Source of the DNA: Paraspadella gotoi
Taxonomy: Eukaryota > Animalia > Chaetognatha
Length of the DNA: 16,982 bases
Reading direction: 5' to 3'
NCBI GenBank assembly: GCA_051294375.1
Contig: CM119271.1
Location: forward strand, 5,055,340 to 5,072,321
The notes beneath the pieces are model-generated. The model was given only the letters and a program-made list of their open reading frames with translations. It searched no databases and was not told the DNA's origin. Below, piece by piece: positions 1,720-15,504 of this stretch. A program made the translations under genes and the position numbers. The number at the start of each line of letters is the position of its first letter. Within the stretch, counting starts at the first letter, position 1.

Positions 1720-2023
1720 GTAAGGAAAAGAAAAGGCGGACCGAGATTGGGGTGAAAGAGGATTGGGGTGAAAGAAGTATTGAGCTAAAAGAGGATTAGG
1801 GTGAAAGCAGACGCGAATCTATAGAGAAGGGAGGTAATTCTTTATTATTAGACTTCAACTCTATAAGACTTTAATATGCATTTATTAGAATTTAGACTAA
1901 TTTAGCTCCAATTCATTTGGTGAGACATATTACTCACGGTTATTATTATTACATTTATTATTATTACTATTATATATTGTAGTGGTAGTATTTCATACCC
2001 CACTACTCGTCCGAGAATCAGCA

Positions 2024-2091
2024 GCACCTATGGCGCCGGAGGTAGCACGAGCTCCTCCCAACCCAAAGGACTCGGGTTCGCGCCCTGCTGA
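2024..2091 (+). promoter_or_regulatory. tRNA-derived Pol III internal promoter (A and B boxes); pseudo-tRNA, Gly(CCC)-like
   Basis: A box TGGCGCCGGAGG at 2031-2042 and B box GGTTCGCGCCC at 2075-2085 (one mismatch to GGTTCGANNCC), with canonical tRNA spacing. CTCCCAA sits at the anticodon-loop position. D and T stems partly pair; acceptor and anticodon stems do not, so this is not a functional tRNA. Confidence 0.6.
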
Positions 2092-2093
2092 TT

Positions 2094-2176
2094 CACACAA
2101 GTAAAAGCGGGACGGGGCGTCTAACCCACCTGTAGTGTCGGACTACAGCCCGATCCGAAGTTCGGGACCTTGTGTG
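2094..2176 (+). ncRNA. Candidate twister ribozyme, type-P5 permutation with minimal P1
   Basis: P5 CACACAAG 2094-2101 / CTTGTGTG 2169-2176; AAAA linker; P2 GCGG 2107-2110 / CCC 2125-2127 (one bulge); GA 2111-2112; T1 CGG 2113-2115 / CCG 2155-2157; cleavage motif UAA 2122-2124; T2 AC 2128-2129 / GT 2160-2161; P3 CTGTAGT 2130-2136 / ACTACAG 2142-2148; P4 CCCGA 2149-2153 / TCGGG 2162-2166; L4 U-CCG-AA-GU. Confidence 0.75.
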
Positions 2177-2314
2177 CAACGGACGGTAAACTGCTCGCGG
2201 CATCTTCTTCCACAATATATTATTTTTATTACTTATTTCTTATCATTATACTCACTTATTACTCACGGTCGGTCAGTCCTGAAGAAAGGAAAGGATCGTA
2301 GAGAGGAAAGGATA

Positions 2315-2490
2315 GGAAAAGAGAAGGACAAGGAATGTAAAAGAGAAGGACAATGAATGGAAAAGAGAAGGACAAGGAATGGAAAAGAGAAGGACAAGGA
2401 ATGGAAAAGAGAAGGACAAGGAATGTAAAAGAGAAGGACAATGAATGGAAAAGAGAAGAACAAGGAATGGAAAAGAAAAGGACAAGGAAT
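2315..2490. repeat. 22-bp purine-rich minisatellite, 8 units
   Basis: GGAAAAGAGAAGGACAAGGAAT repeated tandemly with few substitutions; intronic. Confidence 0.92.
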
Positions 2491-2548
2491 GGAAAGTACA
2501 TCTACTTGAAAGAAAAAAAAAATCTTTCTTATGATAAAAATTTGGTAG

Positions 2549-2962
2549 ACGACGATCACGAGGTCGAGGACGACGAGGAGGAAGAGGAGGAAGAGAAGGA
2601 AGAGGAGGAAGAGGAGGAAGAAGATGAGGAAGAACATCTGGAGGACAAAACCTCGTCCATCATTCATCGCGAGAAAAACAAAAACAACAACAACAACAAG
2701 AAAAACAAAAACAAAAGACTCGGTCGGTCCAAAGAAGGAAAAACGACGAAGGGACAAGAGAGAGAGCGAAACGAGGGACAAGACTCTACGAATCAAGGAC
2801 AAAGTAGGACAAAGGGACGAAGAAAGGAGAGAGTACAAAGTCTCCCGCGGTTCGACGCCGTCGTCGACATCGGATGCGGCGTCGGCGACGTCACCGAGTC
2901 GCTCGTCAAGTGGGTCGCCGATGCTGAGGAGGAGAGAGGGATGAAGACGAGGAATGCGTCAG
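2549..2962 (+). CDS. Exon 3 of the JHAMT-like class I SAM methyltransferase: acidic/low-complexity tract, then motif I
   Basis: Open frame encoding FDAVVDIGCGVGDVTESLVKW (SAM-binding motif I, about 2860-2895). Acceptor TTTGGTAG| at 2548 and donor CAG|GTATGG at 2963, both phase 1. Confidence 0.8.
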
Positions 2963-2976
2963 GTATGGGAGAGGGA

Positions 2977-2980
<4 letters not shown>

Positions 2981-3031
<51 letters not shown>
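2981..3031. repeat. (GA)n microsatellite
   Basis: Pure GA run at the start of the intron. Confidence 0.95.
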
Positions 3032-3757: not shown

Positions 3758-5392
3758 AGAATAAAATGTCTATTTATCCCTTTTTTTTCTTTTTTTTTTT
3801 CGCTTTCATCTTACATTTCTTCATACGTCTCCATCTTAATTATTTTTTTGGGCAGAAGATTTTAACGAAAGAATTTCTTGGGCGAGAGAACAGGAAAATG
3901 CCATTTTCTCTCGACTTTTGTCTTTGGCTTAAATATAAAGAAATAATATATTTTAAAGAAATGCGGCGACATATGACGACGACCGACGTATACGCTAAAG
4001 ACTGAACTAGGCGACCCCGTTATCTGTTGGAGGATGGAGAAATAAAGAAAATAAAAAATCACCAAACGGATAAGAACAGTTAGTGTTAGTTTCTTTTCTT
4101 TAGTTTCTTGCGTGTCTAAATTATTGCACGCAGCGATGCATACTTTACCATTCGATTTTTTTTCTAAAGTTTATCTAGTATATTATTTGATCTTTGTTAG
4201 CGTTATTTTCGTTCTAAGAGTACTATAATTATACGTTTCGAACTTATAAAAATCCTAGCAAATTCTCTTAATTATTTAATTTATACATTCAATTGGAGAG
4301 TTTGGGACTGAAAGATCTCAGAAAATAATTGGGATCGAATCGCGTCGAGTTTACGGCATCGTTCACAAGATCCGGAGGGTGGCAACTTGAAATTATTGGG
4401 CGAGAGACGTCCTGGGAGACATACTTACTTCGAGCATTCTGGAACGAGCGGGTAAGCGAAAAGAAAAGGCGGACCGAGATTGTTGAGTGAAAGAGGAAAA
4501 GTAAGTAAGGTTCAAGGCACTGGGAAAGTAACAGTCTTACTTAGTCAGACAATGAAAGAAAAAAAGATCTCTTCTTATGTTAAAAATTATGGACGACGAC
4601 GATCACGCAAGAAAATTCTAGCTGAGGTCGAGGACGACGTAGGAGCGCACCAACCGAGTGAGGTTAACCGAGTTGAGGATAGAGCAGGGAGAAGATGACG
4701 AAGAACATCTTGGAGACCAGCACTACTAATCGTACCACTACATTCATCGCGAAGAAACAGAACAACAACAACAGACAACAAGAGACAAAGCAGAAAGACT
4801 CGTCGGTCACGCAAAGAAGGAAGACGCGAGGGAGAGAGAGAGCACGAACGCAGGGACAGACTCTGGAACGAATCAAGGACGGAAGTAGGAAGCAAAGGTA
4901 AAAGAAAGAGAAGAAAGAAGGACAGGAAAGTATGACTCCGCGGTAGTCGAGCGCGTCGTCGACATCGATGCCGGCGTCGGCGAACGTCACCGGAGTCGCT
5001 CGTTCAAGTGGGTCGCTTGGATGGCTGTAGAGAGATGAGGGATAAGAGACAGAGATAGCGGTCAGGTATGGGAGAGTGAGATGAAGTAAAAGAGAGAGAG
5101 AGAGAGAGAGAGAGAAGAGGAGAAGAGAGAGAGATGAGAAGGTGATAGAGAGAGAGAGAAGGTAGAAGAGAGAGAGAAAACCATCCTTACTTCGACTGCC
5201 AGAATGCCTCCCAAACTCTTTAGTCGGACTCGACTCCATCTTACCTCCATGAACGGTGGAAGTTAGTTGTCTGCTCGGATTAACAGGGTAGCAGAGTACG
5301 TCGAGTCGACGGAAGGAAAAGCAGATACTGGATTCGTGGATGTGGCGACGCGGAGACTGGAGCGGGTTTGGAGCGCCAAGGGTGGGATGGAG
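3758..5392 (+). other. Indel-rich second copy of about 1049-3732 (likely raw long-read overfill or alternative haplotype)
   Basis: Collinear matches to the upstream region and exons 1-4, with dense single-base insertions. It starts directly after a 25-N gap and lacks about 1760-2468 and about 3032-3540. Confidence 0.85.
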
Positions 5393-5565: not shown

Positions 5566-5901
5566 GATGGACCATGGGTTGGGGAGTGTTCAATTTGCAA
5601 TGAAGGAAATTTACTAGTAGTGTATTAACAGTGTACATAAAAGTGAGTATGAAGGAATATAGCAATGCATGTATTACGATAATTTGTGGATCAGTGAAGC
5701 TTAAAAGTCTAAAATATTCGCCTTTTGTCCAATGATTTACCTCTCTCTCTACTCCTCTCTCTCTCCATCCTCTCCTCTCATCATCCTCCTTCTCTCTCCA
5801 TCATACATCATGCCATAGTCTCTCTACAGAGGTCACGGGCTCTTTCTCTTCTTCTCTCTTCAGTCTCTCAAAGAGTGAGCTCACATAGACCCCTCGCACA
5901 G

Positions 5902-6094
5902 CCTTCGACCTGGCGACGAGCTTCTCCACCTTCCATCATCTCCTCGACGTCGACTCCGCCTTCGACCAAATCGCGCGCGTTCTCAAGCCCGGAGGTCGCT
6001 TTCTCATTGGCTGCTTTCTCGACCAATCCGCGTCGTTTCTTCGCGCCGAGCGACGTCTGCTCGACGGAGACAAATGGGCGGGCGTTTTGAGGAA
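5902..6094 (+). CDS. Exon 5 of the methyltransferase (not shown in the ORF track)
   Basis: Acceptor CGCACAG| at 5901 is phase 1, giving GWDG-AFDLATSFSTFHHLLDVDSAFDQIARVLKPGGRFLIGCFLDQSASFLRAERRLLDGDKWAGVLRK, with classic FDL..S...HH and ARVLKPGG motifs. The donor is uncertain (AA|GTTAAG at 6095). Confidence 0.85.
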
Positions 6095-6704
6095 GTTAAG
6101 GAGGAACGAGGAGAATGGGGAGGAAGAGAGGGAGGAGGAGAGGGAGGAAGGGAGAGAGGAGAGGGAGGAAGGGAAGGAGGAGATAAGAGAAAATACGAAG
6201 AAGGTTGCGGAACAAAAGAATCATATTTTGAAATGGAGGAAGATGGAGAAAGAGAAAGGAAAGAAGAAAAGGGAGGAAGACAGAAAGGAAAGGAAGGAAG
6301 GAGATCAAAGAGAGGAGAAAATAGAAGAAGAAGACGAGAAGGAGGAAGAAAGGAGAAACACGAAGAATAAAAGAGGAAAAGAAAAGAAAATCGAAAGGAG
6401 AAAAAAGAAAGAAAAGAAAGAAAAATCTTCTCTCAGGTTTGAAAACGTTTTGTACAATGAAATCCGATGTTTGTCCGAGGAGATTTTACATAATTCGTTT
6501 TGATATTGTTTTTTAATAATCTTACAATAAAATAAAATTATTTAACGCAATCTCAAAAAATGATATAGTACGAATGCATTTAAATTGATCACTGAGGTCT
6601 AAATCGGACTTCACTGTACTTGACTCTTAAATGCAATTCTTTCCTCATCTTATCTTCGTCACGAGTTATTCAAACTTATTTTTCTCCCCCTCCGGCCTCT
6701 CATC

Positions 6705-9308: not shown

Positions 9309-10186
9309 TTGTATATTAAATAAAAAGTTTAGGAATAATCAAGGGTTATAATTTTTTTTTATTTCAATAACTGATCAGTTTCTTTAAATAAGTATAAAAT
9401 AATTTAACATAAAAAAATTAAAATAAAATTATAATTATCTAGCTTTGTAATTTTGAAAAGCTTCATTTTTCTGATTTTTTAAGATTCAGTTAAGTTCACT
9501 AATAAATTTAAATAAATTCATATTTACTTTTAAGATTCGCAGTCGGGTCCCACGACCTCGCATCTGAAACTACCGTCTGCTCGTCTCTCCGAATTTAGAC
9601 TCATTCTCACTACTTTTCAAGTGAATCTGAAATCAAGAATCTTCCCTGCTTTCTTATCAGAGAGGAAGAGAGAGAGAGAGAGAGAGAGAAGAGAGAGAAG
9701 AGAGAGAGAGAGAGAGACGAGAGAGTGAGATAAGTCAGTCAAACTATATATATTTAAATTCATGGGAAGTTTTCCTTTTTTATCGTATCAGAGAGAATTA
9801 TTTTAATTTGCAACATAAAATCGTTTTACGTAAAATCTTACCTGTTTTGGGTTCCAAATCGACGAACTCGAGTTATAATAATAAACTTATCAAAATTTAA
9901 TTCCTAATGAAAAAAAAATGTAAAATATTTTCTCAAATTACGGTAAAAATGAATAAGCTGTTCCGTTACAATTACTAATTAATAATAAACAGGTTTATAA
10001 TTAACAATACTTAAAAACGAAAAAAGGACAGGGGCGAAAAACGCGTCGTTTTTCAAAGGCGGGAAAAACTGAGTAATGAGATTAAATCGAACTAAGAAGA
10101 TTACGTATTGATTTATGGCATTTAATTTATGTTCACAGTCTGGTTCATCTCAATTCCTTTCTTTAAGCTCGCTCATTCGGGATCTC

Positions 10187-10217
<31 letters not shown>

Positions 10218-10265
10218 TCTCTCTCTCTCTCTCTCTCTCTCTCCTCTCTCTCTTCTCTCTCTCCC
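9309..10265 (+). repeat. Segment A (957 bp), repeated directly at 11804-12760 and inverted at 12761-13797
   Basis: Both direct copies begin TTGTATATTAAATAAAAAG immediately after a 25-N gap, end at CTCTCCC, and appear identical. Confidence 0.95.
10058..10066 (+). promoter_or_regulatory. E2F-type site GGCGGGAAA within a small GC island
   Basis: Matches TTTCCCGCC on the minus strand, next to the imperfect palindrome GAAAAACG-CGT-CGTTTTTC. Motif match only. Confidence 0.3.
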
Positions 10266-10513
10266 TCCTTTCATTCTCTTTTCTTTCTTTCGTTACTTCT
10301 ATCATCTTTTCCAATCTTATGTTTCTTTCTAACTCTACACACACATTACACAGCCTTACACACACAAGTTCTTTTCTCCCTCTGTTTATAGCAATTACGA
10401 TAAAGATAACAAACACTCTTCGAACTAAGGACCTCGGCTCGTCCCATGTCAGTCGAGATAGTAGATAGCGAGCTCTCTCTCTCTCTAGCTCTCTGTATAT
10501 TTCTCTATCTGTG

Positions 10514-10548
<35 letters not shown>

Positions 10549-10787
10549 CTATCAATTTTCTCCTCGTGAATTTTGCTTCTTTTTTTTCTTTCCTTCTTGT
10601 CCTTTTTTCCTTCTTGTCCTTTTTTCCTTCTTGTCCTTTTTCCTTCTTGTCCTTTATTCCGTGCCCAGAAAATTATTTCTTTCCTCTCCATTCGTAGCTC
10701 CTTTACTTTCTTTTGTTCCAGATGAATATCAGCAACGAGGAATTTTGACTGGAATTTGCATAAACCAATTCGAAGCGAAAGACAAAT

Positions 10788-10834
<47 letters not shown>

Positions 10835-10839
10835 GAGAG

Positions 10840-10929
<90 letters not shown>

Positions 10930-11073
10930 CAGAGAGAGAAGAGACGAGAGAGAAAGAGAGAAGGGAGAGAGAAAAAGTGAAATTGCAGGAGGTCGTTCAC
11001 TCTTTGGTTTTAAACCATTTTAAATTTTAAAAAACATGTTTTCCCTTTTTCTTTTACGGCAAACCCGAGAAGC

Positions 11074-11145
<72 letters not shown>

Positions 11146-11460
11146 AGGAGAGGAATTCGAAAGCCTGAAGCACAAATCAACAAGTAATGGTTTTGACAAC
11201 CAAACCCAGATTTCTACTTTTCATTTGTCTTTCGGCTTCGAATTGGTTTATGCAAATTCCAGTCAAAATTCCTCGTTGCTGATATTCATCCTGGAACAAA
11301 GAAAGTAAAGGAGCTACGAATGGAGAGGAAAGAATAATTTTCTGGGCACGGAATAAAGGACAAGAAGGAAAAAGGACAAGAAGGAAAAAAGGACAAGAAG
11401 GAAAAAAGGACAAGAAGGAAAGAAAAAAAAAGAAGCAAAATTCACGAGGAGAAAATTGAA

Positions 11461-11527
<67 letters not shown>

Positions 11528-11778
11528 CACAGATAGAGAAATATACAGAGAGCTAGAGAGAGAGAGAGCTCGCTATCTACTATCTCGACTGACATGGGAC
11601 GAGCCGAGGTCCTTAGTTCCGAAGAGTGTTTGTTATCTTTTATCGTAATTGCTATAAACAGAGGGAGAAAAGAACTTGTGTGTGTAAGGCTGTGTAATGT
11701 GTGTGTAGAGTTAGAAAGAAAACATAAGATTGGAAAAGATGATAGAAGTAACGAAAGAAAGAAAAGAGAATGAAAGGA
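10266..11778. repeat. Inverted repeat B (10266-~10787) / B' (~11223-11778) around a ~430-bp non-palindromic spacer
   Basis: For example, GGACCTCGGCTCGTCCCATGTCAGTCGAGATAG at about 10430 has its reverse complement at about 11578-11612. B' carries scattered 1-bp indels. Confidence 0.93.
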
Positions 11779-11803
11779 NNNNNNNNNNNNNNNNNNNNNN
11801 NNN

Positions 11804-12681
11804 TTGTATATTAAATAAAAAGTTTAGGAATAATCAAGGGTTATAATTTTTTTTTATTTCAATAACTGATCAGTTTCTTTAAATAAGTATAAAATAATTT
11901 AACATAAAAAAATTAAAATAAAATTATAATTATCTAGCTTTGTAATTTTGAAAAGCTTCATTTTTCTGATTTTTTAAGATTCAGTTAAGTTCACTAATAA
12001 ATTTAAATAAATTCATATTTACTTTTAAGATTCGCAGTCGGGTCCCACGACCTCGCATCTGAAACTACCGTCTGCTCGTCTCTCCGAATTTAGACTCATT
12101 CTCACTACTTTTCAAGTGAATCTGAAATCAAGAATCTTCCCTGCTTTCTTATCAGAGAGGAAGAGAGAGAGAGAGAGAGAGAGAAGAGAGAGAAGAGAGA
12201 GAGAGAGAGAGACGAGAGAGTGAGATAAGTCAGTCAAACTATATATATTTAAATTCATGGGAAGTTTTCCTTTTTTATCGTATCAGAGAGAATTATTTTA
12301 ATTTGCAACATAAAATCGTTTTACGTAAAATCTTACCTGTTTTGGGTTCCAAATCGACGAACTCGAGTTATAATAATAAACTTATCAAAATTTAATTCCT
12401 AATGAAAAAAAAATGTAAAATATTTTCTCAAATTACGGTAAAAATGAATAAGCTGTTCCGTTACAATTACTAATTAATAATAAACAGGTTTATAATTAAC
12501 AATACTTAAAAACGAAAAAAGGACAGGGGCGAAAAACGCGTCGTTTTTCAAAGGCGGGAAAAACTGAGTAATGAGATTAAATCGAACTAAGAAGATTACG
12601 TATTGATTTATGGCATTTAATTTATGTTCACAGTCTGGTTCATCTCAATTCCTTTCTTTAAGCTCGCTCATTCGGGATCTC

Positions 12682-12712
<31 letters not shown>

Positions 12713-12760
12713 TCTCTCTCTCTCTCTCTCTCTCTCTCCTCTCTCTCTTCTCTCTCTCCC
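11804..12760 (+). repeat. Exact direct copy of segment A
   Basis: Same length and ends as 9309-10265. Confidence 0.95.
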
Positions 12761-13218
12761 ATCCCGAATGAGCGAGCTTAAAGAAAGGAATTGAGATGAA
12801 CCAGACTGTGAAACATAAATTAAATGCCATAAATCAATACGTAATCTTTCTTAGTTCGATTTAATCTCATTACTCAGTTTTTCCCGCCTTTGAAAAACGA
12901 CGCGTTTTTCGCCCCCTGTCCTTTTTCTGTTTTTAAGTATTGTTAATTATAAACCTTGTTTATTATTAATTAGTAATTGTACGGAACAGCTTATTCATTT
13001 TTACCGTAATTTGAGAAAATATTTACATTTTTTTTTCATTAGGAATTAAATTTTGATAAAGTTTATTATTATAACTCGAGTTCGTCGATTTGGAGACCCA
13101 AAACAGGTAAGATTTTACGTAAAACGATTTTACGTTGCAAAATAAAATAATTCTCTCTGATACGATAAGAAAGGAAAACTTCCCATGAATTAAATATATA
13201 TAGTTTGACTGACTTATC

Positions 13219-13253
<35 letters not shown>

Positions 13254-13797
13254 NNNNNNNNNNNNNNNNNNNNNNNNNNNNNNNNNNNNNNNNNNNNNNN
13301 NNNNNNNNNNNNNNNNNNNNNNNNNNNNNNNNNNNNNNNNNNNNNNNNNNNNNNNNNNNNNNNNNNNNNNNNNNNNNNNNNNNNNNNNNNNNNNNNNNNN
13401 NNNNTCTCTCTCTCTCTCTCTCTCTCTTCCTCTCTGATAAGAAAAGCAGGAAGATTCTTGATTTCAAGATTCACTTGAAAAGTAGTTGAGAATGAGTCTC
13501 AATCGGAGAGACGAGCAGACGGTAGTTTCAGATGCGAGGTCGGTGGGACCCGACTGACGAATCTTTAAAAGTAAATATGAATTTATTTAAATTTATTAAG
13601 TGAACTTAACTGAATCTTAAAAAATCAGAAAAAATGAAGCTTTTCAAAAATTACAAAGCTAGATAATTATAATTTTTATTTTAATTTTTTTATGTTAAAT
13701 TATTTTATTACTTATTTTAAAGAGAACTGATCAGTTATTGAAATAAAAAAAAAATTATAACCCTTGATTATTCCTAAACTTTTTATTTAATATACAA
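12761..13797 (-). repeat. Inverted copy A', with indels and an internal gap at 13254-13404
   Basis: Starts ATCCCGAATGAGCGAGC (reverse complement of GCTCGCTCATTCGGGAT) and ends TTTAATATACAA. Confidence 0.93.
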
Positions 13798-14489
13798 TAT
13801 AATATATATTAAAATATAATTATACATAAAATATATTTTACAGCAAAGGACATTGAAGCTTTCCGGGCTGACCCCTCAAATGGAAGAAATCGAAAAAAAA
13901 TGGGATGAAGAGGAAACAGTAAAGACTAAGAAGCCTTAGAAAGAAGGGGAGAGAGGAAGAAGGAGAATGAGGAAGAAGGAGAACATGAAAATAAAAGAGA
14001 AAGAAGAAGAATTTGAAAGAAAAAGAGGGAAAAACAAAAAGATAATTAAAAAAAANNNNNNNNNNNNNNNNNNNNNNNNNNNNNNNNNNNNNNNNNNNNN
14101 NNNNNNNNNNNNNNNNNNNNNNNNNNNNNNNNNNNNNNNNNNNNNNNNNNNNNNNNNNNNNNNNNNNNNNNNNNNNNNNNNNNNNNNNNNNNNNNNNNNN
14201 NNNNNNNNNNNNNNNNNNNNNNNNNNNNNNNNNNNNNNNNNNNNNNNNNNNNNNNNNNNNNNNNNNNNNNNNNNNNNNNNNNNNNNNNNNNNNNNNNNNN
14301 NNNNNNNNNNNNNAAAGATAGAAAGAAAGAAAAAGATAGAAAGAAAGGAATGAAAGAAAAAAAAGATAGAAAGAAAGAAAAAGATAGAAAGAAAGAAAAG
14401 GATAGAAAGAAGGAAAGGTTGAAGTCGTCGGGTTCATCTTTTTCTCGGATCAACGATGTTGATGAAAACGAGTTTTTTCAAAAAAAGAG

Positions 14490-15082
14490 AATCGCAAATG
14501 GAAATGGCGTCGAGCGACGTTTATCCGACTCGAGAAAAGGGAGAGAAAATGGAAATGGTGAAACTCCAAGAAACGCTCGAAAAGGCAGGGAAAAGGACAG
14601 GAAATTGGAAATGCGAACTTCGAGCGAGCCGAAAATGGACCAGAAGAGACAGAAAAAAATGGAAATTTCAATCTCCAGGCGCGCTCGAAATGCAATCAAA
14701 AGTGACCAGAATAATCGAAATCCGGGGAATCTCGAAGAGCTCATAACTAGCGGAAAGAAAATGAGACAGAAAATGAAATATGACTGAATCCAATGAGCTC
14801 GCAAACAGGCCGACAGAAAAGACAGAAAATGGAAATGGCGAATCTCCAAGGAGCTCGAAATGGAGATAAAAGGGACAGAAAATGGAAATTGCGAATCTCC
14901 AAGGAGCTCGAAATAGAGATAAAAGGGACAGAAAATGGAAATGGCGATTCTCAAAGAAGCTCAAAATGGAAATAAAAGGGACAGAAAATGGAAATTGGGA
15001 ATCTCGAAGGAGCTCAAAATGGAAAGAAAAGGGACAGAAAATGGAAATGGCGAATCTCGAAGGAGCTCGAAATGGAACAAAA
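14490..15082. repeat. 53-bp minisatellite: 5 clean units (14821-15082) preceded by about 6 degenerate units
   Basis: GACAGAAAATGGAAAT recurs at 14821, 14874, 14927, 14980 and 15033. Unit is approximately GGGACAGAAAATGGAAATGGCGAATCTCCAAGGAGCTCGAAATGGAGATAAAA. Confidence 0.9.
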
Positions 15083-15504
15083 AGAGAGTCTTGCTCTCAG
15101 GTCAAAGATGAAGCTGAGATCATTAACGTAACTTATTAGAATTTAAGAAACTAGTGTAAATGTAAATATATATTAAACAAGAGCTTAATTGATATTTCTT
15201 CAGTGTTAACAATTTACAAACTTTAAAAGTTTTAAGATTCTTTAACTTCAAGCCAACATTCGTAGTCTATCACAAAAAACAAATAGGATTAATAATCTCT
15301 TGTTATTACAAAGAAAAAACCAACGGCACTTCATCGGCGTCTTATCACAAAAAAAGCCTCATTTCACTGGCATCTTATCACAAAAAAAAAGCGAGGCGCT
15401 CTATTCCCGACGCGGCGCCACGTCAAATCTCCGCGCCATCGAACCCTTTCAACTCGGCGCCATCTCGTTGGCGTCGCGGTTGTCGTTTTCGTCGGAGATG
15501 TTAC

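What the first reader, a model, noticed from the sequence alone, without database searches (positions are those of the whole stretch)
1928..2269. tRNA-head plus twister mobile unit: possible Pol III-driven ribozyme SINE/retrozyme family
Seen: a pseudo-tRNA with A/B boxes (2024-2091) abuts the twister candidate, and the unit is bracketed by a perfect 13-bp direct repeat (1928-1940 / 2257-2269) and (TAT)-rich flanks. Established: tRNA-derived heads define SINEs; hammerheads occur in some SINE-like satellites and retrozymes; twisters are linked to non-LTR elements in Schistosoma. Inference: a non-autonomous element combining its own Pol III promoter with an internal twister that processes its transcript. 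I do not recognise this exact architecture. An oddity is that about 80 bp lie between the left direct repeat and the tRNA head, unlike a simple SINE.
Basis: partly seen in the sequence, partly recalled or inferred. Interest (0 to 1): 0.8.

Follow-up and report, generated by a model that had tools for sequence, protein, structure and literature searches.

The report
Twister ribozyme in tRNA-bearing solo LTR
A 237-base, highly repeated piece of DNA carries a tRNA-like stretch followed by a conserved RNA fold of the self-cutting "twister" type; it is likely the leftover end repeat of a tiny jumping gene (not a SINE) whose RNA is predicted to cut itself and would then be copied through a circular form, a route described so far for plant elements with a different ribozyme.

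Summary
The mobile unit is real but is 1978-2214, not 1928-2269. Contigs of seven runs pile up on it and break off sharply at both ends. It begins TGT, ends ACA, has ATAT on both sides and no tail, so it is likely a solo LTR, not a SINE. The 13-bp repeat exists but lies 37-42 bp outside and is not its target duplication.

The head has degenerate A/B boxes, as in Helenus TRIMs (Kojima 2024). The ribozyme fits a circularly permuted (type P5) twister at 2094-2176 (descriptor: 0 of 300,000 shuffles). A sister subfamily changes three P5 pairs on both sides (unphased). Against: Rfam does not recognise it, P2 is short, P1 is replaced by a self-complementary linker, and cleavage, transcription and a two-LTR copy were not shown here.

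Best mechanism (inferred): Pol III transcription, cleavage at 2122/2123 in both LTRs, possibly by the two twisters pairing, then circularisation and Gypsy-driven copying, as in plant LTR retrozymes. Rival: a folding switch that cuts only the 3' LTR. Verdict: new variant of a known kind; interest 0.7.

The parts
1978..2214 (+). 237-bp repeated unit, TGT...ACA ends; likely solo LTR of a Helenus-type TRIM
   Evidence: Summed contig depth 27,000-57,000 inside versus 8 at 1844-1909 in X1; loose ends at 1977/1978 and 2214; MFE z -3.47, 0 of 200 shuffles
1974..1977 (+). ATAT, left copy of the putative 4-bp target-site duplication
   Evidence: such a match arises by chance in 95 of 1326 flank 4-mer pairs (7%), so weak alone
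2215..2218 (+). ATAT, right copy of the putative 4-bp target-site duplication
1979..2006 (+). Predicted 5' hairpin of the LTR
   Evidence: MFE and centroid
2015..2024 (+). 5' strand of a 10-bp 'lock' helix with 2085-2094; predicted to keep the head off the ribozyme in read-through RNA
   Evidence: duplex as good in 9 of 3000 shuffles
2031..2042 (+). Degenerate Pol III A box (2 mismatches)
2075..2085 (+). Pol III B box, GGTTC core kept, 1 mismatch; same 11 letters as in the sturgeon Helenus LTR
   Evidence: (read by eye)
2094..2176 (+). Type-P5 (circularly permuted) twister-like fold
   Evidence: descriptor 0 of 300,000 shuffles; no Rfam match
2094..2101 (+). P5 5' strand, 8 of 8 pairs with 2169-2176
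   Evidence: three pairs changed on both sides in a sister subfamily (unphased)
2107..2110 (+). P2 3' strand; 2 stacked pairs with 2125-2126, a third only past a bulge
2111..2115 (+). Predicted catalytic G2111, A2112 and T1 strand CGG (pairs with 2155-2157)
   Evidence: no variant listed at 1%; 2114 G>A in 1-3 contigs per run
2115..2122 (+). Self-complementary linker in place of a normal P1 hairpin; could pair two copies
   Evidence: 8-bp self-duplex -9.5 kcal/mol
2122..2124 (+). UAA; predicted cleavage U2122/A2123
   Evidence: position in the fold; not tested
2128..2129 (+). T2 5' strand AC, pairs with GU 2160-2161 (A-U where S. mansoni twisters have G-C)
   Evidence: compared with Table 1 of PMC8501958
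2130..2148 (+). P3 hairpin, 7 bp; its loop holds the most variable site of the fold (2138)
2149..2166 (+). P4 (5 bp) and L4 loop UCCGAAGU
2169..2176 (+). P5 3' strand
2180..2186 (+). Second CGGACGG; pairs with 2007-2013 (7 bp) or 2118-2122 (5 bp); basis of the rejected canonical-order reading
1928..1940 (+). 13-bp direct repeat, left copy; host flank, outside the element
2257..2269 (+). 13-bp direct repeat, right copy; host flank, outside the element

Best explanation
The 237-bp repeated unit at 1978-2214 is likely a solo LTR of a Helenus-type miniature LTR retrotransposon, and the type-P5 twister fold behind its tRNA-like boxes is predicted to cut the RNA in both LTRs of a full element, which would free a unit-length RNA that is likely circularised and copied by a Gypsy helper. 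Shown: high copy number, sharp ends, TG...CA, a 4-bp flanking match, the A/B-box remnant and a twister-compatible pairing pattern. Inferred: LTR status, Pol III transcription from about 2012-2024, cleavage at U2122/A2123, RtcB-type ligation of the 5'-OH and cyclic-phosphate ends (known for hammerhead retrozymes), tRNA-primed reverse transcription on the circle (which restores the terminal repeat that double cleavage removes) and integration with a 4-bp duplication. Predicted refinement: P1 cannot close as a hairpin (2-nt loop), but the linker is self-complementary, so the twisters of the 5' and 3' LTR would pair as a swapped dimer; a solo copy like this one would then cut poorly.
For: Ends: loose ends at 1977/1978 (7+13 contigs X1, 9 X5, 4 X9) and at 2214 (12 X1, 10 X5, 2 X8, 4 X9; 18 X2, 12 X5, 14 X6, 14 X7), with mixed flanks (agreement 0.45-0.63). 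Depth falls from 8,200-25,500 at 2205-2210 to 176-499 at 2217-2222, so no shared tail. A joint from 2214 back to 1978 in 2 of 4 runs fits LTR-internal-LTR or tandem copies. Animal Helenus have 4-bp TSDs and LTRs of 104-323 bp; one starts with the same 9 letters. Fold: T1, T2, P3, P4, P5 all pair; descriptor core in 30 and full P5 type in 0 of 300,000 shuffles. Sister subfamily in 4 of 4 runs (8-12 and 7-10 contigs): P5 strands read TGCTAGT / ACTAGCA, 7 of 7 pairs, three changed on both sides; its G2166>A is matched by 2149 C>T in 14-17 contigs. The commonest change in the fold is in the P3 loop (2138, 30-48 contigs). Dimer: unconstrained two-copy MFE -73.9 versus 2 x -31.5 kcal/mol, with swapped P5 and an intermolecular P1; 2117 G>A (17-26 contigs) and 2121 C>T (3-11) keep the self-pairing. 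Precedent: plant LTR retrozymes; a hammerhead-like motif behind the B box of the published Synergus Helenus-2 LTRs (by eye).
Against: No two-LTR copy, PBS or PPT was seen in my calls; the plurality flank behind 2214 has TGGT in only 3 of 8 rows, two from one sample. The 4-bp match has a 7% chance rate. Rfam gives no twister or tRNA match. P2 has a 3-nt 5' strand and only 2 stacked pairs, where 4 bp is described as important (PMC5408937); unconstrained folds prefer other partners for 2125-2127, and the ribozyme-ready fold costs 5.8-9.8 kcal/mol before pseudoknots. Core-breaking variants exist: 2123 A>C (4-9 contigs), 2157 G>A (5-17), 2160 G>A (2-4) and 2110 G>C (3-20). The descriptor was written after seeing the sequence. 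Sister-family covariation joins two loose-end consensuses that are not phased, and the 80% identity floor favours conservation. 13 of 232 hexamers of the element are self-complementary, so the linker alone is modest evidence. Relatives without the twister core exist, so it is not required for mobility.
Confidence: 0.55

Rival explanations
1. Same LTR and twister, but a folding switch lets only the 3' LTR cut. RNA that starts at the Pol III start in the 5' LTR folds the B-box strand (2074-2090) over the catalytic strand and cut site (2108-2127). In the 3' LTR the upstream lock helix frees the ribozyme. The cut would then act as the 3'-end former of a linear RNA with a roughly 100-nt R region and ordinary LTR replication.
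For: For RNA ending at 2214, P(P5) is 0.90-0.99 for all starts tested from 1900 to 2018, 0.51 at 2019 and at most 0.15 for 2020-2032; the flip holds at 15-37 C. The lock helix beats shuffles (9 of 3000). The LTR has no T4 terminator, whereas one twister-less relative ends in a T6 run plus ACA (1 contig).
Against: The masking helix is not stronger than chance (207 and 821 of 3000 shuffles). The cost of the active fold differs by only 1-3 kcal/mol and is not monotonic. The real start is unknown and starts up to 2018 are 'on'. 2117 G>A would break a masking pair. Fish Helenus LTRs lack a terminal T-run without any ribozyme seen (by eye).
Confidence: 0.2
2. The element is a Helenus-type LTR that captured a twister, but in this subfamily the fold is inactive or irrelevant and the element moves like any TRIM.
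For: Short P2, no hairpin P1, A-U in two places where G-C is described as nearly invariant, no Rfam match, twister-less relatives.
Against: Both G-C to A-U swaps are changed on both sides; P5 covaries between subfamilies; the commonest variant in the fold sits in the P3 loop. P1 is reported dispensable.
Confidence: 0.15
3. One reading: a tRNA-headed SINE or non-LTR (Penelope-dependent) retrozyme inserted by target-primed reverse transcription, with the 13-mer as target duplication.
For: tRNA-like head; AT-rich flanks; the 13-mer exceeds chance (5 of 2000); the 2214-to-1978 joint could be a tandem array; S. mansoni has Pol III hammerhead SINE-like repeats.
Against: Fixed ends at 1978 and 2214 in seven runs, TG...CA termini, no tail, head not at the 5' end, 13-mer 37-42 bp outside the unit.
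Confidence: 0.05
4. The ends come from a DNA transposon (Ginger-like TGT...ACA with 4-bp TSD; recalled, not tested) and the RNA features are passengers.
For: TGT...ACA and a 4-bp duplication.
Against: The terminal inverted match is only 3 bp (TGTAG versus TGTGG on the other strand); the conserved RNA fold and Pol III boxes point to an RNA intermediate.
Confidence: 0.05

Closest known systems
Helenus TRIMs (TRIMp3), Kojima 2024, PMC10886601 (read: main text parts 1-4 of 6; supplement parts 1, 5, 7, 10, 11 of 11 plus searches)
   Same: Short non-coding LTR, TG...CA, tRNA-like A/B boxes inside the LTR, 4-bp TSD as in animal families, length within the 104-323 bp range, solo LTRs common.
   Different: About 130 bp between B box and LTR end that hold a twister fold; no twister or ribozyme is described for Helenus in the main text. 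No sequence match to six 11-13-letter motifs in the supplement (line breaks could hide some). PBS/PPT not seen here. The Synergus Helenus-2 LTR consensus shows, by eye, an unannotated type III hammerhead-like motif in the same position.
Plant LTR retrozymes, Cervera et al. 2016, PMC4918200 (passages)
   Same: Non-coding LTR element, self-cleaving ribozyme in the LTR, 4-bp TSD, Gypsy helper, solo LTRs; model of double cleavage, circularisation and reverse transcription on the circle.
   Different: Ribozyme is a type III hammerhead there and a P5 twister here; no Pol III tRNA-type promoter found in the passages searched; plants versus a likely invertebrate; circles shown there, untested here.
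Twister ribozyme, type P5 (class of Roth et al. 2014, not held, not read; features from PMC5408937 and PMC6154101 passages and PMC8501958 Table 1)
   Same: UAA site, G-A before T1, T1 and T2 pseudoknots, P3, P4, U...AA loop spacing, termini in P5.
   Different: P2 short, P1 not a hairpin, two conserved G-C pairs are A-U; below Rfam detection.
Twister variants at the 5' end of Perere-3/RTE LINEs (PMC8501958: abstract, introduction, section 17) and Schistosoma Pol III hammerhead SINE-like repeats (PMC6765202 passages)
   Same: Ribozyme inside a retroelement; in the latter a Pol III promoter beside a ribozyme.
   Different: Non-LTR elements, TPRT insertion, canonical-order twister at the 5' boundary or hammerhead in tandem arrays.
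Cassandra TRIM (PMC7215508 passages)
   Same: Pol III promoter in the LTR of a non-autonomous LTR element; tandem LTR-internal arrays.
   Different: 5S-derived promoter with terminators, plants, no ribozyme in the passages seen.

Membership tests
Helenus TRIM | LTR with TG...CA termini and fixed ends | tested here: met
   TGT...ACA; sharp ends in seven runs
Helenus TRIM | tRNA-like A/B boxes in the LTR (TRGCY, YGG, GGTTC) | tested here: met
   TGGC, CGG and GGTTC present, the Y of TRGCY is G; motif in 96 of 20000 shuffles
Helenus TRIM | 4-bp TSD (animal families) | tested here: inconclusive
   ATAT on both sides in this one copy, 7% chance rate; other copies' flanks not available
Helenus TRIM | Two LTRs around a short internal part with PBS and PPT | tested here: inconclusive
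   This copy is solo; 2214-to-1978 joint in 2 of 4 runs with unknown letters between; TGGT in 3 of 8 flank rows. Unchecked earlier notes report 647-742-bp two-LTR elements in this genome
Twister ribozyme (type P5) | U/A cleavage site followed by A; conserved G-A before the T1 strand | tested here: met
   U2122 A2123 A2124; G2111 A2112
Twister ribozyme (type P5) | Pseudoknots T1 (3 bp) and T2 (2 bp), P4 and L4 spacing | tested here: met
   All Watson-Crick
Twister ribozyme (type P5) | 4-bp P2 | tested here: not met
   2 of 4 pairs in register; 5' strand 3 nt
Twister ribozyme (type P5) | P1 stem (conserved, reported dispensable) | tested here: inconclusive
   No hairpin possible; can form between two copies or with 2181-2185
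Twister ribozyme (type P5) | Termini in a P5 stem | tested here: met
   8 bp; three both-sided changes in a sister subfamily, unphased
Twister ribozyme (type P5) | Match to an Rfam twister model | tested here: not met
   No match at E<=10
Twister ribozyme (type P5) | Self-cleavage | not testable with these tools
   Needs an in vitro assay
LTR retrozyme | Hammerhead in each LTR | tested here: not met
   No hammerhead match; the ribozyme fold is twister-type, so it works like, but is not filed as, a retrozyme
LTR retrozyme | Unit-length linear and circular RNAs | not testable with these tools
   Only contigs available; none on record as RNA
tRNA-derived SINE | tRNA head at the 5' end | tested here: not met
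   About 45 bp of shared element sequence precede it
tRNA-derived SINE | 3' poly(A) or simple-repeat tail and long variable TSD | tested here: not met
   Fixed end at 2214, mixed flanks, 13-mer outside

The most novel reading that the evidence does not exclude
An animal LTR retrozyme of a new build: a Pol III-driven mini LTR retrotransposon whose two LTR twisters each lack a first helix and complete each other as a swapped dimer, so that only full two-LTR transcripts are cut to unit length and circularised while the many solo LTRs stay nearly silent. With the hammerhead-like motif in wasp Helenus-2 LTRs, ribozyme capture behind the tRNA promoter would be a repeated solution in Pol III TRIMs.
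Probability: 0.3. Interest if true: 0.85.

Novelty: new variant of a known kind. Interest (0 to 1): 0.7.

Why it matters
LTR retrozymes are described as hammerhead elements found mainly in plants, and animal retrozymes as non-LTR. A twister in the LTR of a Pol III-driven TRIM would extend the LTR-ribozyme-circle route outside plants and to a second ribozyme class. It would give eukaryotic twisters a role beyond 5' trimming of RTE LINEs. It would also offer a testable answer to how a Pol III transcript of a TRIM gets defined ends when the same LTR sequence must be read through once and ended once. Ten literature searches listed no paper whose title, abstract or the passages I read describe a twister in an LTR; the library lacks most subscription journals, and Repbase/Dfam could not be checked. 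Other unreviewed notes of this scan describe the same family from the same genome, so this window adds a solo copy, the P5 covariation, twister-less relatives and two competing mechanisms rather than a separate discovery.

Tried and rejected
No whole genome is held, so copy number, TSDs of other copies and full-length elements could not be read from the assembly. Rfam at gathering and at E<=10 over three stretches gave only unrelated weak hits. An 18-letter pattern in metagenome contigs gave 120 loci; BLAST of the element against all 120 found no alignment longer than 31 bp, so these are chance. A 27-letter pattern in viral contigs gave 0. No RNA holder listed; X9 is only guessed to be RNA, so it says nothing on expression. 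Stretch 2240-2272 had no cover; a hole is not used as evidence. Canonical-order (P1-type) twister reading with GACGG 2182-2186: rejected, since it fails the 2-bp P2 test and the sister subfamily changes its A to G. HDV-like, twister-sister and hammerhead readings were tried by eye and gave no consistent fold. Host identification failed: the methyltransferase exon found no homologue among longer proteins (0 of 152 candidates), PDB hits were generic and the Atlas gave no result; 'animal' is an inference. Sequence look-up in earlier findings gave nothing. Roth et al. 2014 is not held. Summed contig depth is not a copy number; I claim only hundreds of distinct contigs (727 laid in X1).

Full report
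Setting. The window is eukaryotic, rich in simple repeats and gapped. A methyltransferase-like exon lies downstream (Pfam PF08241, E 8.7e-10 at 5889-6122). No genome is held. Nine runs of coded 'organism A' from 3 studies hold the stretch or part of it.

The 13-bp repeat. It is exact at 1928 and 2257 and cannot be extended; 5 of 2000 shuffles of the two flanks give a shared word of 13 or more, and there is no third copy within 2 mismatches. It is real, but it does not bound the mobile unit.

True boundaries. Laying contigs on 1712-2700 (727, 424, 72 and 104 laid in X1, X5, X8, X9) gives summed depth 27,000-57,000 over 2009-2206 in X1 against 8 at 1844-1909. Contigs run off into unlike sequence at 1977/1978 and at 2214 (24 loose-end rows shown, 378 not). 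A second laying (403, 189, 203, 199 contigs in X2, X5, X6, X7) shows depth falling from 8,200-25,500 at 2205-2210 to 176-499 at 2217-2222, with 12-18 contigs per run leaving at 2214 into mixed flanks. The raised depth at 1910-1975 is attributed to the TAT-rich tract 1940-1973, where contigs enter and leave with unrelated flanks. The unit starts TGT, ends ACA and has ATAT on both sides; that 4-mer match has a 7% chance rate in these flanks. One contig each in X5 and X9 runs from 2214 back to 1978 with unknown letters between. The plurality flank behind 2214 has TGGT, as primer-binding sites do, in 3 of 8 rows (X1, X2 of one sample; X5 only), a weak hint. These features fit a solo LTR and not a SINE. 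The 13-mer is 37 and 42 bp outside; it is likely a local duplication in the AT-rich host flank, or the scar of an older insertion (untested).

The head. A box 2031-2042 and B box 2075-2085 carry 3 mismatches to the recalled consensus (54 of 1500 shuffles as good); a looser Helenus-style motif occurs in 96 of 20000 shuffles. ARAGORN and Rfam do not call a tRNA. Kojima 2024 (PMC10886601) defines Helenus as TRIMs with such boxes in the LTR, non-functional as tRNA, with 4-bp TSDs in animals and likely Gypsy helpers. In its supplement a nemertean LTR starts with the same 9 letters and the sturgeon LTR has the same B box, both read by eye. The main text mentions no twister and names retrozymes only as another group.

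The ribozyme. Rfam finds nothing. Mapped by hand on the S. mansoni domain table, the segment reads UAA, P2, T2 (AC), P3 (7 bp), P4 (5 bp), L4 UCCGAAGU. Two GACGG words could supply the catalytic G-A and T1. The downstream one (2182-2186) has no 2-bp P2. The upstream one (2111-2115) gives a type-P5 permutation closed by an 8-bp P5 (2094-2101/2169-2176). A descriptor finds the core in 30 and the full P5 form in 0 of 300,000 dinucleotide shuffles; in the whole window 2 cores occur and only this one passes. The descriptor was fitted after seeing the sequence, so the figure is optimistic. The whole unit folds at z -3.47, though the ribozyme part alone does not beat shuffles (z -0.27 and -0.50).

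Comparative evidence. In 4 of 4 runs a sister subfamily diverges before 2105 (8-12 contigs) and behind 2163 (7-10 contigs). Its P5 strands are TGCTAGT and ACTAGCA: 7 of 7 pairs, three changed on both sides. Its G2166>A is matched by 2149 C>T in 14-17 contigs; the partner for its 2164 change is not resolved. Its downstream GACGG becomes GGCGG. That the two loose ends belong to the same copies is inferred from similar counts. Of 21 variant rows at 1%, 6 fall in the P3 loop, including the commonest change in the fold (2138). None is listed at 2107-2116, 2122, 2124-2126, 2128-2135, 2142-2148, 2151-2156, 2158-2159 or 2161-2162. Against: 2123 A>C (4-9 contigs), 2157 G>A (5-17, a CpG), 2160 G>A (2-4), and 2110 G>C (3-20) and 2114 G>A (1-3). 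P2 has only 2 stacked pairs where 4 are described as important, while P1 is reported dispensable (PMC5408937 passages). I therefore call it twister-type, not a proven member.

Relatives without the twister. Joints 2105 to 2178/2181 replace the core by 27-32 purine-rich letters (X1, X5, X6). Head-only pieces 2004-2088 occur in X8, and one X5 contig joins the head to an LTR-like end with a T6 run. The twister is thus a module present in some lineages of the LTR.

Mechanism. Model A (preferred, inferred): both LTR twisters cut, giving a unit-length RNA with 5'-OH and cyclic phosphate that is ligated and reverse-transcribed as a circle, as modelled for plant LTR retrozymes (PMC4918200 passages; RtcB ligation of animal retrozyme RNA, PMC7229834 passages). 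The linker 2115-2122 is self-complementary (8 bp, -9.5 kcal/mol). Two copies of 2092-2178 fold unconstrained to -73.9 versus 2 x -31.5 kcal/mol with swapped P5, an intermolecular P1 and P2 one register off; the imposed swapped ribozyme structure scores -62.9 versus 2 x -26.4. The variants 2117 G>A and 2121 C>T keep self-pairing; 2119 G>A (CpG, 1-8 contigs) breaks it. The dimer idea came from earlier unreviewed notes on Naiad twisters. Model B: a switch. P5 forms with probability 0.90-0.99 for starts up to 2018 and at most 0.15 for starts 2020-2032, where the B-box strand masks the catalytic strand and cut site (stable at 15-37 C). The lock helix beats shuffles (9 of 3000) but the masking helix does not (207 and 821 of 3000). 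Neither model includes pseudoknot energies. Model C: an inactive relic.

Earlier notes. After I had recorded the LTR, P5 and Helenus readings (notes), look-ups showed four unreviewed notes from this genome describing twister-bearing LTRs, three of them two-LTR elements of 647, 663 and 742 bp. I could not check them and do not count them as support. One pointed to Synergus Helenus-2; in the supplement these LTRs show, by eye, GUC, a 7-bp stem, CUGAUGA, a 4-bp stem and GAAA with complementary loops behind the B box, a type III hammerhead pattern (not run through any tool).

What I read. PMC10886601: parts 1-4 of 6, supplement parts 1, 5, 7, 10, 11 of 11 and term searches; unread parts may hold other ribozyme-bearing LTRs. 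PMC8501958: abstract, introduction, section 17. Passages only: PMC7761336, PMC6154101, PMC6765202, PMC5408937, PMC4918200, PMC7229834, PMC7215508, PMC12859917, PMC13570524, bioRxiv 2022.07.19.500677, bioRxiv 2026.07.22.740005 (preprint supplements closed). Roth 2014 not read. Pol III box consensus and the Ginger comparison are recalled.

Verdict. Observation partly confirmed, interpretation partly supported. Identity as a Helenus-type solo LTR with a P5 twister-type fold is about 0.85 likely; the full double-cleavage circle mechanism 0.55. New variant of a known kind; interest 0.7.

Noticed in passing
Supplement of PMC10886601, Helenus-2_SyJa-LTR and Helenus-2_SyUm-LTR: Both published wasp LTR consensuses show a type III hammerhead-like motif with complementary loops right behind the tRNA-like part; the paper's main text does not mention it. 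Read by eye only.
   Followed up: partly
window 3760-5200 versus about 1060-1450, 1711-1780 and 2505-3000: An indel-rich second copy of the same locus; in it the stretch matching 1780-2505, which holds the element, is absent. Could be a noisy long-read gap fill, another allele or a paralog.
   Followed up: partly
window 9309-13800: Large direct and inverted duplications next to N gaps; likely assembly artefacts.
   Followed up: no
window 2845-2940 and 5889-6122: Exon-like pieces of a class I SAM methyltransferase gene on the + strand.
   Followed up: partly
window 1834-2277: AT-rich block from GT to CAG with a branch-point-like word inside the right 13-mer; the element may sit in an intron. 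By eye, untested.
   Followed up: no
runs X5, X8, X9 on window 2004-2088: A separate abundant family shares only the tRNA-like head (11 linked differences at depth about 5,500 in X5); may be a twister-less Helenus LTR or a SINE.
   Followed up: partly
runs X6, X7 at window 2157: One contig per run joins a sequence like the LTR's first 24 bases directly to 2157, a likely internal-deletion derivative.
   Followed up: no
window 2300-2495 and 14768-15140: Tandem repeats of 22 bp and 53 bp.
   Followed up: no
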